NCBI GenBank assembly: GCA_951406725.2
Contig: OX597822.1
Span: 13,516,001 to 13,580,000, forward strand
Reading direction: 5' to 3'
Source: Octopus vulgaris
Taxonomy: Eukaryota
DNA length: 64,000 nt
The notes beneath the pieces were generated by a model. That model saw only the letters and a program-made list of their open reading frames with translations, ran no database searches and was not told where the DNA came from. Of this stretch, positions 2,051 through 9,546 are shown piece after piece. Made by a program: the position numbers and the translations under genes. The stretch's first letter is position 1. Each line of letters opens with the position of its first letter.

Positions 2051-3519
2051 AGGAATAATGTTAGATAGTGAAAGGATGCTATTTTTATTCATATAATAGT
2101 TCATGAAACTTTTATTATCAGGACATAATTACTGATATATTTAGAGATTTTGTTTCAAATGAGTTGACGTCAAGTTAAAGTTGTTGAAATTAAAGATGCT
2201 GAAATTTTCAACTGCGACCATTCCGTCTGGTTACGGATAGTATTTAGGAAAATATTACCTGTACACCTCCTTATTTAAGACAGTAATTTGAGCTTCCACG
2301 AAAATTTAGCTGCTATTTCTGGGATCTAGAGACCACGTTGAGAGTATTTTGTTTAGAAGTTGTGAAAATGGGAGTCAAAATGCATAACTGCGATTATCTG
2401 TAGCTCTTCCTTATCTCCTAACTTCAAAATATCTTTCCTGCTTTGTTTTCGATGTAATTAGCTGAAATACCCTTGAAGCTAGGGATTTAAAATAAAAGGA
2501 ATGAAAGAAAGCAAGAAACGATAAATGAATGATTGAAAGAACGAAAAAATAAATATGGTTAATTATAGAGATAAAGGCAATTAATGAAACAAGTTGTCTA
2601 AATTGTTCACTGATAACTTCTTGAAATTCATGTTGTTTATTTTTCTATCGCCTGAATGATGGTATGTAGCGACAGCAGTAGAACGGAGCAACAAAACGAA
2701 TAATCAGCTTCTTACCAACAAACAAATAAACACTATTAGATATGTTGAGGAATTTTTTCTTCTCGTTTGTACATCCAAACATATTGAAAATTCAGTTGCA
2801 TTTGTTATCTTTCTGGCTCTCATTTTCGGTTTTATAGGTCAAGATATAAGCAATATACTTCGTATACTATCCTTCTTTTGTTGGTTGGCAACAACAATTT
2901 TATTTTAAATGTGGGATGGCTAGAAACATATATTTGTGTCCGGAGTAAAATATATGAACACACACATACTCATATACCTAGACACACACGAACATAGACA
3001 AATATATATACGTGTGTGTGCGTGTGTTATAATTTAGAACAAACAGTAACAGGTTGTCATGATAGTACTCGATGTTTCGAATGTCGGAGCGAAGAGCTAC
3101 GATATGTTCTCGTCGACTACTAATGGCAACAGAAGCTATGAAAAACCGTTGAAAAAAAGGTAATTTACTCTATTAGGTAGAAAAAGAAAAAAGAAAAAAG
3201 ATAGAAAATACACGCAACCATATTCTCACAATACATAGACATAAACCTCCTGCGTTCACAACGTCTACATACTTACACACTCACACAAACTCCGATTACT
3301 ATGATGACAACCTTTTACTGTTTTTTTCTAATTTATAACATAAAAAAACCTCTATTGCTCTAATATTGAGGTTTCATTCTTTTGTTGTCACTTATTATTA
3401 AATGACCTCCCGTACACCGCAGCTTTTTTTCTCTAAGAGCTTAATACAGCTTGTATTGAATAGTTGCTATCAATCGCTTGAGGAATTTCTCCCACAGAAG
3501 AATCTAATATGGTTCCTTA

Positions 3520-4985
3520 GAGTATCGATTACTCAATGAAAATCATACCTATACCTTCCAGAGAACTATACTCTTAAAAAAATAATTGGAGAAAATGACG
3601 GATCTTATTAAACGTATGAGATGGAAGGTCTTCCATTACAACAATGAAGAGTCTATCGCAGAGAACATATACCATGAAATTAAATCCCTTCCAAAATCAA
3701 GGACTTGGGAGACTTCGAAACAGATCTACTCATACTTACAGACAAAATCAAATTTCGTAATTCCTTTAAAACTTTTCAATAGAAACTGAAAAAGACATTA
3801 AAAACATAAAAAATTTCAAAAGAACGGCACTTTCTTCTGATAAAACCAAGAACTTATACCTTGTAGACAACAGCCCTTACTCACAACTCCTACATAACAA
3901 TGTTATTAGTAATTACACTAAAGCTAGACTACAAGTTTATAACGACATTAATAAAGAAGCTAGTATCATCACCGCTAGGTTTAAATTAGATTTTTTTTAA
4001 ATATTGATCCTTCCAAAATAAAAAAAAGACCTTTATAACTATTAAGAACCATAAAGAGAACTTCCTATCTAATCCTAAATAAAGATTAATTAACCCTGCA
4101 AAATCAGAAATTGGTATAATTAGTCAGGAAATTTTATGAAAAATCAATGCTAAAGTTAGAGGGTCAAGTAATTTAGTACAATGGTCCCAAAGTTGTTTAA
4201 AACAATTAGAAATAAGAATAAAGCAAGATTTAAACAATTTAATATTGTAGATCTCTATGCATCTATTTCTAGAAAACTGCTAAATAAAGCCCTCACTTTC
4301 GCAAGCGATTTTACAGAGATTCGTGAACAAGATTAGGATATAATCCTCTATGCTAGAAAGACCTTACTCTTCAGCGAGAACACAGAGTGGGTCAAGACAG
4401 CAGAATCAGAAGGTTCTTTCGATGTGAGCATGGCGTCATATGATGGAACAGGCATACGCGATCTCATTGGGCTATTCCTGCTTGACACGTTAGGGAAAGC
4501 TTTTCCTGGTGTATATTTCGCTATTTATAGGGATGATGCTCTAGCTTTAGCTAAGAATACCATTGGACCAGCGCAAAATCCGTTAAGGAAGGGTGTTATC
4601 CGTCTTATGAAAACATTCGATCTAAGCATAACAAAAGATGCCAACCTGACGGTTGTCAATTTCCTTGACGTATTTCTAAATTTACAAAAGAATATTTACA
4701 AACCCTATAGAAAGCGCAACGATGGACTTAGTTATATTAATGTAGGTTCCTGCCACCCCATCCCCAGAGTGTTTAAGAATTAGTTAAGAATCTTAGAAGG
4801 AGAATTTATAGCCTCCCCTCCAATATAAACATATTTAATAATGTTGCCCCACTATATAACAATGCCCTTAAAGCTAATGGATTTGAAGAGGAAATAGCTT
4901 ATACACCTGCTATTAAGCCAGAAATAAAGAAACGAAAACATAGACACAGGAATATTATCTGGTTCACATCCCGTTACTCCTCGGA
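3520..4985 (+). mobile_element. Decayed Penelope-like element (PLE) reverse transcriptase
   Basis: motifs across frameshifts: DLIKRMRWK, DKTKNLY, HKENF.SNPK.RLINPAKSEIG, MASYDG, IYRDDAL (4526..4537 = YRDD), NFLDV, PYRK, S.HP, RNIIWF; stops before the GIY-YIG domain. Confidence 0.85.
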
Positions 4986-5084
4986 AGCAATCTATTATTG
5001 TTGTTGTTGTTGTTATTATTATTATATAATATATTATTATTATATATGACCATCTGAAGAATCAATAAGATATGTGTGTGTGGA

Positions 5085-5132
<48 letters not shown>

Positions 5133-5689
5133 GTGTGTGCGAGCGTGCGTTGTGTGCGAGCGTGCTGGAGAACGAGAGAAAATAAAAAAAAAAAACATTA
5201 TGAAGTCTACTCCGAAATACTTTGGCATCGAATCCGCGTCGACAAAGGGCAGCGCCAAAGCGGCAGCGCCAAAAACGGCAGTGCTAAAACGTCTCGTAGC
5301 TCGCTGGAATATCTTCGATCATGGGTTTTCACGATGATACTCCAAGACCTGTAGAACAACAGCCTTTATTGCCATAAAGAACAAGCTCTTTTCTTTGTAA
5401 TGACATTATTCCAAAGACATAAAATTACGTGTTAAGACAAATCGAAGATGAAATCTTTGCACTGGACAATCTTAGGCACGGGATAATTAAGTCTCGCTCC
5501 ACGGCGCACGAGAATTAATATTGATTTATCTTGTTTAAGGTACGAATCACCTTTTAGAAACAGGAACAGATTAAATCTTGAATGTAGAGGCCATACACAT
5601 TTAAAGGGGGATGGAAATTAAAGGGAACTGAATCAATACGCCATCTTTTGTTTCTCTTCTCTTCCTCTTCCTACTGCTGCCACGACGAC

Positions 5690-5737
5690 GACTATTACGA
5701 TAACAACAATAGAAACAACAACAAGCATAATGATGGC

Positions 5738-5806
<69 letters not shown>

Positions 5807-5822
5807 GATGATGATGATGATG

Positions 5823-5905
<83 letters not shown>

Positions 5906-5911
5906 TATTAT

Positions 5912-6003
<92 letters not shown>

Positions 6004-6018
6004 CAATAATAATGATAA
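5690..6018. repeat. (AAT)n/(GAT)n trinucleotide tract
   Basis: direct reading. Confidence 0.97.
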
Positions 6019-6110
6019 TTGCAGGTATGAAAGACAGGAAGAATTATTCGAAGGAAACTATTTTAATCTGGTCGCGAATAACCAATACCACGCCACACAT
6101 ACACGCATAA

Positions 6111-6141
<31 letters not shown>

Positions 6142-7370
6142 TACACGCAAACACAAATATACGCATAGATCCATATAAATCCAAACGCACACATACATAT
6201 ATACATAAGAACATACACACACATATATATATACATACATAGATACACTCAGTCATACATACACACAGACATATATATGTGTGTGTGTATGTTCGAATAT
6301 TTGTGTGTGTGTCTGCTTCAATATATCTATGTGTGTGTACGTACTTATATACATATCTATATATCTATATGTATATATGTATATATATATTTATATATAT
6401 ATATATCTATATATATATATATTTATTTATACACATACACACACATATATATATATATATGTACATATATATATATATATGTATACACTTATATGTATAC
6501 ATACATACATACATACATACATACATACATACGTAAATAGATACTTACACACACATATGCACAGATACAGAACCAGCATTTAGCGTAAAATAGAAATATC
6601 CCGCTCTCTCCTATTTCCATGTTTTACAGCAAAATAATAAAAAAAAAGCACTACATGATGTCTTACTCTGAACATATAATGTTTGGGGAGGGTCAAGAAG
6701 AGAGAACAGGATCAATGCTTAATGCTTAATCTGCTGGATATGTCCTGGTCAGATGTTCCCTTATACAAATGCCAGTCCGGAAGGCGATGGCGTTAGCAAA
6801 GTGGTACTGCGGCTGCGCTTGATTGTGTGTTTTTTTTCTTATTATTTTGAGTTGTACGTCATGTTATTCACTTGCAGGCGAAGTACGGACGGCTTGTGTG
6901 TATGTGTTTGTTTCTGTGTGTGTGTTTGTGTTTGTTTCTCAGTGTGTATGCGTTTGCATGTGTATTTGTGTGTATGCGTGTGCGCGCACGTGTGTATGCG
7001 TGTTTGTTCTTTTGTGTGTGTGTGAAAGGATGGTTGTATGTAGTCGTATATCTTATGAAAATGATGGAGTGTTTGTGAAAGTGTGTATCTGAGTAAATGC
7101 GTGCGTGAAGTGATAGCGCAGTGCACAAAACACCAACAGGACAACATTCACTTCTACCACTTCCGGTTCCCACCGACTCAACCGGCTCCGAAACTACCGC
7201 TAATAACCAATGACACCTCTACCACCAACACCAGCAACACCTGTACCGTCATCAACACCATCATCATTACAAAGACCAAGACTAATACATGTTTCTTTAC
7301 TACCCACAAGTGGCTAAACACAGAGAGAACAAACAAGGACAGACAAACGGATTAAGTCGATTACATCTGT

Positions 7371-7754
7371 ATTCTAGGATCAGATATGGCGATGGTATTT
7401 ATCTGTCCTTGTTTGTCCTCTCTGTGTTTAGCCCCTTGTGAGTAGTAAAGAAATAGGAAATAGGTGTTTCGTCAGCCGTTACATACTGAGTTCAAATTTC
7501 GCCGAGGTAGACTTTGCCTTTCATCCTTTCGGGGTCGATTAAATAAGTACCAGTTACGCACCAGTGCGAACCTGGTACTTATTTAATCGACCCCGAAAGG
7601 ATGAAAGGCAAAGTCTACCTCGGCGAAATTTGAACTCAGTATGTAACGGCTGACGAAACACCTATTTCCTATTTCTTTACTACTCACAAGGGGCTAAACA
7701 CAGAGAGGACAAACAAGGACAGACAAATACCATCGCCATATCTGATCCTAGAAT
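7371..7754. repeat. Near-perfect ~385-bp palindrome built from a SINE junction fragment plus unique flank
   Basis: attctaggatcagatatggcgatggta... mirrors ...taccatcgccatatctgatcctagaat; centre ~7562. Confidence 0.93.
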
Positions 7755-8391
7755 TAATAACACCACCTCTGCCACCTATACCACAGCTATCATCACCACC
7801 ACAGCCATCAACATCGTTATTTTAACACCTCTCCTACCTTCACCAACACAACTACCACCAAAACCATACTGGCATCACAAATACCAAACTTCTATCACCA
7901 ATATCACTACCACCACCAGTACTACCACCAGCATATCACTACAACTAAGACTAGTACCACCTGAATATGACTGCCAGCAACGCCATCACCACTGCAACTG
8001 CCACCCCCACCATTTTTTTGCATTCAGATATTCAATGTTAATGCTTTTCATTCGGCCGACGTGTTAATTCCCTCTGTATTTGATAAACTCCTATATACAT
8101 TTTCTCCAAACACATTTCTGTGGATGGACGCATTTCCCCCCTACACGTGTTTCTATTCCCATTTTTACTTCGGACAGCTTTTTCTATGCATATCGTCTAC
8201 ACCTAATGTTATTGTTGAATTTGAATTTAGTTTTTATTTCGATAAGCTTTATTTTCTCAGTGTGTTTGGGCCTTGTACTTTTGAGCTGTCTCGTTTCTCT
8301 ACCTAGCGCACGATTTCTAATCGCAGCCAACCTCTCCTTAAATACATTATTTACAATTTGACGGACATTTCTCTTCGTATTGTTTGTTGTT

Positions 8392-8437
8392 AACACAACA
8401 TTTCGGCTGATATACCATCCAGCCTTCATCAGGTGTC
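8392..8437 (-). ncRNA. Minimal type I hammerhead ribozyme motif
   Basis: minus: gacac CTGATGA a ggctgg atggtata tcagcc GAAA tg TT gtgtt. Confidence 0.72.
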
Positions 8438-8484
8438 TTGGGGAAATTTCGAACCTGGGTTCTCATTCCTGAGGTATTTGTCGA

Positions 8485-8561
<77 letters not shown>

Positions 8562-8688
8562 TCACTGCCTGGAATCGAACTCGGAATCTTGGGGTTAGTA
8601 GCCTACGCTCTTAACCACTATGCTATATAATTGTAATAACATCGAAAAATACCTTAGGACTCAGAACCCAGGTTCGAAATTTCCCCAA

Positions 8689-8734
8689 GACACCTGATGA
8701 AGGCTGGAGGGTATATCATCAGAAACGTTGTGTT
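8689..8734 (+). ncRNA. Minimal type I hammerhead ribozyme motif (helix II partly decayed)
   Basis: gacac CTGATGA aggctgg..tcatca GAAA cg TT gtgtt. Confidence 0.65.
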
Positions 8735-9546
8735 AACAACAACGATGAGGACAAATATCCGTCAAATGTAAATAATGTAAATAATGTACATAATTCCTCA
8801 TCTCTTAAATATAGAACTGTACTCTCCTTAAATGAATAGGCACTACATCTCATACACACACATACACACGCATCCCTCAATTTATGCTTCTATGTCGTGC
8901 GTGCTTTTCTTACCTTATGCTCTTTAGTTTTAACTTCTACAAATTTCACTCTCTTCTACGTTCTTCCAAATCAAAATTCCCTGTAATGAATTACTAAACT
9001 TATTTTCAACAGATTCATATAGTTTCTCATTTATTTTTCTGTAATACTCATTTAACAATGTAATAATTTCATTATCAATTTTTAGTTTCATTTCCATTTA
9101 AATTCTAATTTCTATCACTCGCAATATTTTTTTCTCCTTCTGATCAGGTCCTTCTGCCTCTCGATATCGTTTTTACGACGATAGATTCTTTATGCTATCC
9201 AGTTTTAAATTCCAGTTCCACTGACCCTCAATTTTTCCGTTATGGTCAACTGCTTTCAGCCAAGAGATTTTCGTTATTTAAAAAGCAAATGCCCTCCCCA
9301 CTCAATTTGAAATATTTATTCAATAAGTTTTGTTCATCTTTTGTTTTATCTTTCACTTGTTCAGTCATTAGACTGAGGCCATGCTGGAGTACTGCCTTGA
9401 AGCATTTTTTAGTCGAATGAATCAACACAAGTACTTTTTTTTAGTTTATGTTTGGTATTTATTATATCGGATCCTTGTACCGAACCGCTATGTTACAGAT
9501 ACCTAAACACGCCGACACACAAATATATATATATATATAAATATAT

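What the first reader, a model, noticed from the sequence alone, without database searches (positions are those of the whole stretch)
8332..8833. tRNA-promoter + hammerhead retroelement inserted as a fold-back with 12-bp TSD
Seen: minus strand has a tRNA-like head (A-box TAGCATAGTGG, B-box GTTCGATTC, 8558..8626), an (AAT)n spacer, then a body with a minimal HHR. A headless inverted copy of the body lies on the other side, and CTCTCCTTAAAT duplicates around the whole unit. Established: HHRs and inverted pLTRs mark PLEs, and Pol III + HHR repeats are known from Schistosoma SM-alpha. Inference: a Pol III-transcribed, self-cleaving SINE/retrozyme hybrid mobilised by a PLE rather than a LINE. I cannot recall this being described in cephalopods.
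Basis: partly seen in the sequence, partly recalled or inferred. Interest (0 to 1): 0.85.

Follow-up and report, generated by a model that had tools for sequence, protein, structure and literature searches.

The report
Penelope end-repeat with tRNA promoter
This is not a separate SINE but a back-to-back pair of end pieces from an abundant protein-coding Penelope-type jumping gene, and its one unusual feature is a tRNA-derived promoter that likely marks where the element's RNA starts.

Summary
In detail: tRNA-like A/B boxes, (AAT)24, a minimal hammerhead in both inverted arms and a perfect 12-bp TSD. The SINE reading does not. Head+AAT+body is the pseudo-LTR (pLTR) of an autonomous Penelope/Poseidon element (pLTR-RT-GIY-YIG-pLTR). 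The "body" is the start of its ORF, and short copies share the ORF-linked majority pLTR sequence. The family has roughly 36,000 insertions. The inverted pair, one-sided 43-nt tail, 10-16-bp TSD and hammerhead are published PLE features. Both hammerheads in this copy are damaged. What looks new is a tRNA-Arg-derived promoter inside an autonomous element's pLTR. Seven of 11 position-sampled head-bearing insertions stop within 25 nt around the A box, peaking 14 nt upstream. The 2.5-kb coding strand has no TTTT (4.5 expected). That fits Pol III transcription, but self-priming at a 5' palindrome, known from other PLEs, could also explain the clustering. RNA-seq reads showed no start or cleavage peaks.

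The parts
8332..8343 (+). Left target-site duplication (12 bp)
8344..8486 (-). Arm 1 body: last 20 nt of the pLTR UTR plus the first ~123 nt of the PLE ORF; ends at the tail-less priming site; 132/142 identical to the family majority
8344..8466 (-). Remnant of the ORF N-terminus (ATG at 8466-8464; reads MRTQVRNFPKTPDEGW..., then broken by a stop)
8392..8437 (-). Minimal type I hammerhead, arm 1 (extra A after A9; C15.2 changed to T; predicted cut after GUU at 8397)
   Evidence: cleavage not tested
8486..8557 (-). (AAT)24 microsatellite inside the pLTR UTR
8558..8627 (-). tRNA-Arg-derived head of the pLTR; 5'-truncated 2-3 nt upstream of the A box
8615..8625 (-). A box
8572..8580 (-). B box
8628..8639 (+). 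Head-to-head junction and AAT remnant of arm 2
8640..8821 (+). Arm 2: headless pLTR body running to ORF position +165; start codon mutated; 177/182 identical to the family majority
8689..8734 (+). Minimal type I hammerhead, arm 2 (stem II broken by two substitutions; predicted cut after 8729)
8779..8821 (+). One-sided 43-nt PLE 'tail' between the two priming sites
   Evidence: PMC11167929
8822..8833 (+). Right target-site duplication (12 bp)

Best explanation
The feature is a dead, head-to-head pair of 5'-truncated pseudo-LTRs from an autonomous Penelope/Poseidon retroelement whose pLTR contains a tRNA-Arg-derived A/B-box module that likely serves as its RNA polymerase III promoter. Shown: the unit is UTR-head-(AAT)n-ATG-hammerhead-RT-GIY-YIG-stop, followed by the pLTR again. 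Copies end at two sites (+120 to +132 and +161 to +165 from the ATG), and inverted pairs carry the tail on one arm and a 10-16-bp TSD. Inferred, by analogy with the anole element PAc: the RT/endonuclease nicks both target strands about 12 bp apart and primes internally at the two sites. When it primes on the first (5') pLTR of the RNA, the cDNA can only run about 250-300 nt to the RNA's 5' end. That end is inferred to lie 13-14 nt upstream of the A box, where a small palindrome lets cDNA ends fold back or anneal, giving head-to-head pairs. This would yield many short SINE-like copies without a SINE master. Here arm 1 stopped at the A box and arm 2 inside the AAT run. The hammerhead is predicted to cut after GUU only as a dimer or with protein help, and did not define the inserted ends. 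Odds: pLTR stub of an autonomous PLE about 0.9; tRNA module is the working promoter about 0.55.
For: Linkage to RT/EN. RVT_1 at E=2.4e-10. Full-length relatives of 660-860 aa, including an Anolis protein at 35% and 31% over the EN half. The body is in frame with the ORF, and a 55%-identical relative keeps the hammerhead-encoded peptides TPD-G and PKRCVNN. Short and ORF-linked majority pLTRs are the same. Tail on exactly one arm in 50 of 61 pairs; TSD mode 12-13 bp. Arms share the N7 subfamily variant more than expected (both minor 8, expected 2.6; discordant 5 of 42). 5' ends: 7 of 11 position-sampled head-bearing insertions stop between -15 and +9 of the A box. Short copies read TA before position -14 in 21 of 25, EN-linked copies read AT in 36 of 38. 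Genome-wide exact counts: 778 palindromic, 211 EN-type. The same -14 loose end appears in three public contig sets and one RNA run. No TTTT in 2,510 coding nt, 4.5 expected, P=0.009; two other PLE frames have 7 vs 2.8 and 7 vs 6.6 expected.
Against: No transcript start was observed. Reads lay equally in both directions, about 79% ran on into unrelated flanks, and no start or end peak was listed. GGGG is also absent (0 vs 3.0, P=0.04), and LINE RT frames are T4-poor too (about half of expected, my sum), so the T4 result is weak and rests on one master sequence. Rotifer PLEs have 5' pLTR palindromes and palindromic inverted junctions, with no tRNA mentioned (PMC3846280). Characterised PLE promoters overlap a spliceosomal intron, and Chlamys transcripts are polyadenylated and H3K4me3-marked (PMC8557442). 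PMC10886601 argues that autonomous elements must use Pol II. Rfam and ARAGORN do not call the head a tRNA.
Confidence: 0.55

Rival explanations
1. Same PLE stub, but the tRNA module is a passive fossil: an old tRNA/SINE insertion with an AAT tail in the UTR. The element is transcribed by Pol II or read-through, and 5' ends cluster because nascent cDNA self-primes at the palindrome in front of the head.
For: 5' pLTR palindromes of 18-38 bp and palindromic inverted junctions occur in Adineta PLEs (PMC3846280). A hairpin of -11.1 kcal/mol sits at -21 to +2. Reads look like passive read-through. T4 depletion is not unique to this element.
Against: A and B boxes are intact and at tRNA spacing while the stems have decayed. 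Junctions never keep the longer bulged hairpin that read-through RNA would offer: 0 of 9 classified fold-backs, and 21 of 25 short copies change sequence exactly at -15. No TTTT in the whole 2.64-kb unit.
Confidence: 0.3
2. One reading: short head+body copies are their own Pol III-driven SINE lineage, copied in trans by the PLE protein from short master loci.
For: Short copies outnumber ORF-linked ones, start at the head, and carry A/B boxes with no TTTT in the body. PLEs can mobilise other sequences in trans (PMC3846280), and non-autonomous PLE derivatives exist (PMC8557442; 10.64898/2026.07.22.740005).
Against: No diagnostic difference between 153 short body hits and 72 ORF-linked ones. The head is part of the autonomous pLTR. 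Most inverted pairs include the +165 end (55 of 61). PAc needs RNA downstream of its priming sites (first 172 nt of the ORF, PMC11167929), which short copies would lack (inference).
Confidence: 0.11
3. A retrozyme like Schistosoma Sm-alpha: tandem units are cut by the hammerhead, circularise and reinsert.
For: Type I hammerhead plus Pol III-type head, as in Sm-alpha (review PMC6765202).
Against: No tandem arrays of the short unit among 120 query-centred loci or 18 sampled insertions; tandems include ORF sequence. Ends do not map to the GUU site. Only 24 of 145 full-length hammerhead hits keep the strict core.
Confidence: 0.03
4. An ordinary tRNA-SINE with an AAT tail jumped into an unrelated fold-back (MITE-like) element.
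For: Viewed alone, the window shows a head and AAT run between two inverted arms.
Against: Head-AAT-body order recurs in most loci, with and without inversion, and next to the PLE ORF.
Confidence: 0.01

Closest known systems
Penelope/Poseidon EN+ PLEs, especially Poseidon_Ac (PAc) of Anolis carolinensis (PMC11167929)
   Same: Single ORF with RT and C-terminal endonuclease (~840 aa). Hammerhead overlaps the ORF start. Two internal priming sites (PAc: +111-118 and 30-40 nt further; here +120-132 and +161-165). AT-rich targets.
   Different: The pLTR here carries a tRNA-derived A/B-box module and an AAT run. The ATG lies 30 nt before the hammerhead rather than inside it. No such promoter is mentioned in the parts of the PAc paper I read.
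Pen2/Pen2a/Pen3a of Adineta vaga (PMC3846280) and the general PLE insertion scheme (PMC8557442, Fig. 2 legend)
   Same: Inverted 5'-truncated pLTR, one-sided 30-40-bp tail, TSD, pLTR containing the first codons, 5' palindrome, solo pLTRs.
   Different: TATA/Inr-like promoter proposed there; TSD 8-10 bp against 10-16 bp here.
Minimal type I hammerheads of metazoan PLEs (PMC4209133)
   Same: [quoted passage not shown] Pairs on opposite strands 100-700 bp apart, attributed there to truncated PLEs.
   Different: No octopus family or tRNA-like head is described in the parts read; cleavage triplet here is GUU.
TRIMp3 elements Helenus, Ajax, Cassandra (PMC10886601)
   Same: Small-RNA-derived Pol III promoter inside a terminal repeat of a retroelement.
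   Different: Those are non-autonomous LTR elements. Here the repeat is the pLTR of a protein-coding PLE.
Schistosoma Sm-alpha/Sj-alpha (via review PMC6765202; primary papers not read)
   Same: Pol III-type promoter followed by a hammerhead.
   Different: Tandem, non-coding units with a canonical hammerhead. Here the unit is an ORF start, dispersed as inverted pairs.

Membership tests
EN+ Penelope/Poseidon PLE | Single ORF with PLE-type RT | tested here: met
   RVT_1 E=2.4e-10; 35-55% identity to full-length relatives; no intact genomic ORF was seen among fetched copies
EN+ Penelope/Poseidon PLE | C-terminal GIY-YIG endonuclease | tested here: met
   Aligns to the EN half of the Anolis protein, 31% over 289 aa, E=3e-41; motif reads VYSIP...YKGET; Pfam gave no hit on this piece
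EN+ Penelope/Poseidon PLE | pLTRs flanking the ORF in partial tandem and including the first codons | tested here: met
EN+ Penelope/Poseidon PLE | Inverted 5'-truncated copy, one-sided tail, TSD | tested here: met
   tail on one arm 50 of 61; TSD >=10 bp in 30 of 61 vs 0 of 150 controls
EN+ Penelope/Poseidon PLE | Minimal hammerhead in the pLTR | tested here: met
   core and helices in the majority sequence; no Rfam hit
EN+ Penelope/Poseidon PLE | Phylogenetic placement in the Poseidon clade | not tested
   no tree built; placement rests on similarity to one named Anolis protein taken to be PAc
tRNA-derived SINE | Head derived from a tRNA with A and B boxes | tested here: met
   46 of 73 identity to tRNA-Arg, 0 of 300 shuffles; compared with 30 tRNA loci covering about five isotypes only
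tRNA-derived SINE | Independent non-autonomous lineage with its own masters | tested here: not met
   short and ORF-linked majority sequences are the same; sample is ~225 body hits, not the whole genome
tRNA-derived SINE | Transcribed by Pol III | not testable with these tools
   standard RNA-seq reads showed no start peak
Non-LTR retrozyme / Sm-alpha | Head-to-tail tandem short units, each with a hammerhead | tested here: not met
   none
Non-LTR retrozyme / Sm-alpha | Self-cleavage and circular RNA | not testable with these tools
   no joint or end peak at the GUU site in fragmented reads, which cannot exclude it

The most novel reading that the evidence does not exclude
An autonomous, protein-coding Penelope element that has captured a tRNA promoter and is transcribed end to end by RNA polymerase III, its 2.5-kb ORF purged of TTTT terminators. 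It sheds tens of thousands of SINE-like pLTR stubs whose 5' ends map the start site, and so shows how Pol III-plus-hammerhead repeats such as Sm-alpha could arise.
Probability: 0.3. Interest if true: 0.8.

Novelty: new variant of a known kind. Interest (0 to 1): 0.5.

Why it matters
If the tRNA module drives the element, it counters the view that autonomous retroelements must use Pol II (stated in PMC10886601). It would raise the question of how an uncapped Pol III RNA is translated, and would link PLE pLTRs to Pol III-plus-hammerhead repeats. A defined RNA 5' end also makes the unresolved origin of PLE head-to-head inversions testable. In practice, about 36,000 copies would be mislabelled as SINEs by head-based annotation. 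If the module is a fossil, the locus is an ordinary decayed PLE stub.

Tried and rejected
Rfam on the window and on 8 loci at E<=5: no tRNA or hammerhead. ARAGORN: none. Sequencing runs: no RNA holder listed. Three raw-read RNA runs were added by species label and may be a different species from G000. Laying them gave equal depth in both directions and no start or end peaks; the loose ends at L138:1404/1405 reflect a deletion in that copy, not cleavage. DNA context of close relatives: metagenome scan with P0001 found nothing; with P0002 it found one 33% relative, L321, which has a short pLTR with no A/B pattern. So I could not test whether sister elements share the head. Five other PLE-like fragments in this genome (seven frames scanned with flanks) showed no A/B pattern of their own by regex (single decayed copies). 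PDB sequence search: one chance hit, E=0.28. Dimer co-folding was only 4-7 kcal/mol better than two monomers and did not give the clean dimer hammerhead: inconclusive. Arm-versus-arm identity (91.1% within, 90.4% between insertions) cannot separate fold-back from twin priming. Earlier findings by sequence gave one unrelated phage note. Rejected: SINE-in-MITE, retrozyme tandem, hammerhead-defined ends.

Full report
Observation. Two things were missed. The right arm runs 43 nt further than the left, and both hammerheads are damaged (left: C15.2 to T; right: stem II broken). Rfam and ARAGORN call neither a tRNA nor a hammerhead. The window lies in G000, 2.80 Gb in 227 contigs.

A family, and what it belongs to. 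The body had 1,133 first-look candidates. In 21 of the 30 fetched loci a head lies upstream in the same direction, and 26 of 30 head loci have a body downstream. One locus, L005, had endonuclease-like coding sequence directly before the head. Searching with it, the head follows the stop codon in 25 of 30 loci and the body in 26 of 30 (the 30 include the query locus and one locus I oriented wrongly). Walking upstream recovered RT sequence and the 5' end, where the body directly precedes the rest of the ORF in 25 of 30 loci and a sense head precedes the body in 7. The body is in frame: the ORF begins at the ATG seen at window 8466. A natural RT frame hits Pfam RVT_1 at E=2.4e-10, while two other frames had no Pfam hit. 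Fifty-one longer relatives were found, the best at 55% identity, one an Anolis carolinensis protein at 35% that I take to be Poseidon_Ac (inference). The endonuclease half aligns to it at 31%. The 55% relative keeps the two peptides encoded by the hammerhead core while the loop between them differs. So head+AAT+body is the pLTR of an autonomous Penelope/Poseidon element.

Abundance and shape. In 140 evenly spaced 10-kb stretches there were 20 hit clusters, or 18 insertions after merging two split pairs. That scales to about 36,000 per genome (Poisson range about 21,000-57,000, by hand). Five were body only, two ORF only, and eleven had a head. Of those eleven, three ran on into the endonuclease, one stopped near the stop codon, and seven stopped between -15 and +9 of the A box. 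If a random stop fell in that span 5-15% of the time (my assumption), P is below 0.0004. 3' ends are bimodal at +120-132 and +161-165 from the ATG. The same two ends appear as loose ends in three public contig sets and one RNA run. Of 61 inverted pairs, 50 have the tail on exactly one arm and 30 have a TSD of 10-16 bp (mode 12-13), against 0 of 150 controls. The 61 include pairs whose outer edge is followed by ORF; six duplicate or query loci and the 30 tRNA loci were left out.

Not a separate SINE. Majority sequences of short copies (153 body, 86 head hits) and ORF-linked copies (72 body, 55 head hits) are the same. The exceptions are CpG-type sites, one head position (G/A) and a position covered by three hits. 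The hits are biased toward copies resembling my queries. Most inverted pairs contain the +165 end. In PAc the template must extend beyond the priming sites (PMC11167929), so I infer the source RNA continued into the ORF. The arms of one insertion share the hammerhead N7 variant more often than chance (8 vs 2.6 expected; 5 of 42 discordant), and otherwise differ about as much as unrelated copies. That fits one template followed by decay.

The tRNA module. Against 30 tRNA loci of this genome the head best matches tRNA-Arg, 46 of 73 bases, above all 300 shuffles. Copies that keep the palindrome before the A box change sequence exactly at -15: 21 of 25 short copies read TA, 36 of 38 EN-linked copies read AT. 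Exact genome-wide counts are 778 for the palindromic form (27 nt, some counted on both arms), 211 for the EN-type form (32 nt) and 36 for the pLTR-to-ORF junction. A limit 13-14 nt upstream of an A box is where a Pol III start would lie (own knowledge). The 2,510-nt coding strand of the majority sequence has no TTTT against 4.5 expected (P=0.009), and natural copies have 0.2 of the expected number; synonymous shuffles gave P=0.03. Against this: GGGG is equally absent, LINE RT frames have about half the expected T4 (my sum), and all copies descend from essentially one master. Other PLE frames are not depleted (7 vs 2.8, 4 vs 2.5; 7 vs 6.6). RNA reads lay equally in both directions, mostly ran into unrelated flanks and showed no start or end peak.

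Mechanism. Shown: architecture, two 3' ends, one-sided tail, TSD, clustered 5' ends. Inferred from PAc, which nicks and extends both strands and primes at two internal sites: priming on the 5' pLTR gives short cDNAs that stop at the RNA start and join head-to-head through the palindrome or microhomology. Inferred and untested: Pol III starts that RNA. The main rival is self-priming at the palindrome with a passive tRNA fossil, since Adineta PLEs have such palindromes (PMC3846280). The hammerhead is not needed for insertion in PAc, and ends here do not map to its cut site.

Literature seen. PMC11167929 and PMC4209133: parts 1-2 of 4 (main text and discussion). 10.64898/2026.07.22.740005: part 1 of 5 and passages. 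PMC8557442, PMC3846280, PMC10886601, PMC6765202, PMC4758252, PMC13282606: passages, plus one supplement search for the last. The Sm-alpha, dimer-hammerhead and octopus OK/OR SINE primary papers were seen only as citations. Nine searches listed no paper describing a tRNA-derived promoter in a PLE pLTR. Repbase, Dfam, subscription journals, bioRxiv supplements and the octopus repeat library (190 Penelope-like consensus sequences) could not be checked, so the family may already be catalogued.

Earlier notes of this scan report the same family many times, mostly as a PLE-dependent SINE. One (e1-8669850) reached the reading given here. I formed mine before looking (stated), and theirs is not independent support.

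Verdict. A real but decayed PLE stub whose layout is known. The tRNA-derived promoter in an autonomous pLTR is the new variant. Interest 0.5; the end-to-end Pol III reading has probability about 0.3 and would merit 0.8.

Noticed in passing
L197 (G000:C2:55000001-55010000), minus strand after the ORF stop: A different PLE family (31% identity) whose 3' region holds repeated TGACGTC and ATTGG motifs, a Pol II-like enhancer array, with no A/B pattern.
   Followed up: partly
L199:8762, L221:2797, L223:3888, L316, L004: Other abundant tRNA-headed SINE-like families with different heads appear in the sampled DNA; one sits inside the AAT run of a family copy (L081).
   Followed up: no
window minus strand, frames starting at reverse-complement offsets 20580, 46495, 62994, 63365 and 25468: Long open frames that look like LINE endonuclease/RT fragments and a transposase fragment.
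   Followed up: no
L185 (G000:C1:70000001-70010000), 2631-7430: Long open frames (1.3 kb and 3.1 kb) of an LTR-retroelement-like gag/pol, apparently young.
   Followed up: no
family pLTR, hammerhead position N7: The only clear subfamily polymorphism in the body (T/A) falls on the one free position of the hammerhead core and is a conservative Asp/Glu change in the ORF; a 9-nt in-frame repeat also varies.
   Followed up: partly
window 7500-7625: A 62-bp-arm inverted repeat, 97% complementary with a 2-nt spacer; probably simple-repeat DNA, not examined.
   Followed up: no
L321: Metagenome contig with a complete Poseidon-like ORF, a short direct pLTR and a hammerhead-like core reading CTGTAAA instead of CTGANGA.
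   Followed up: no
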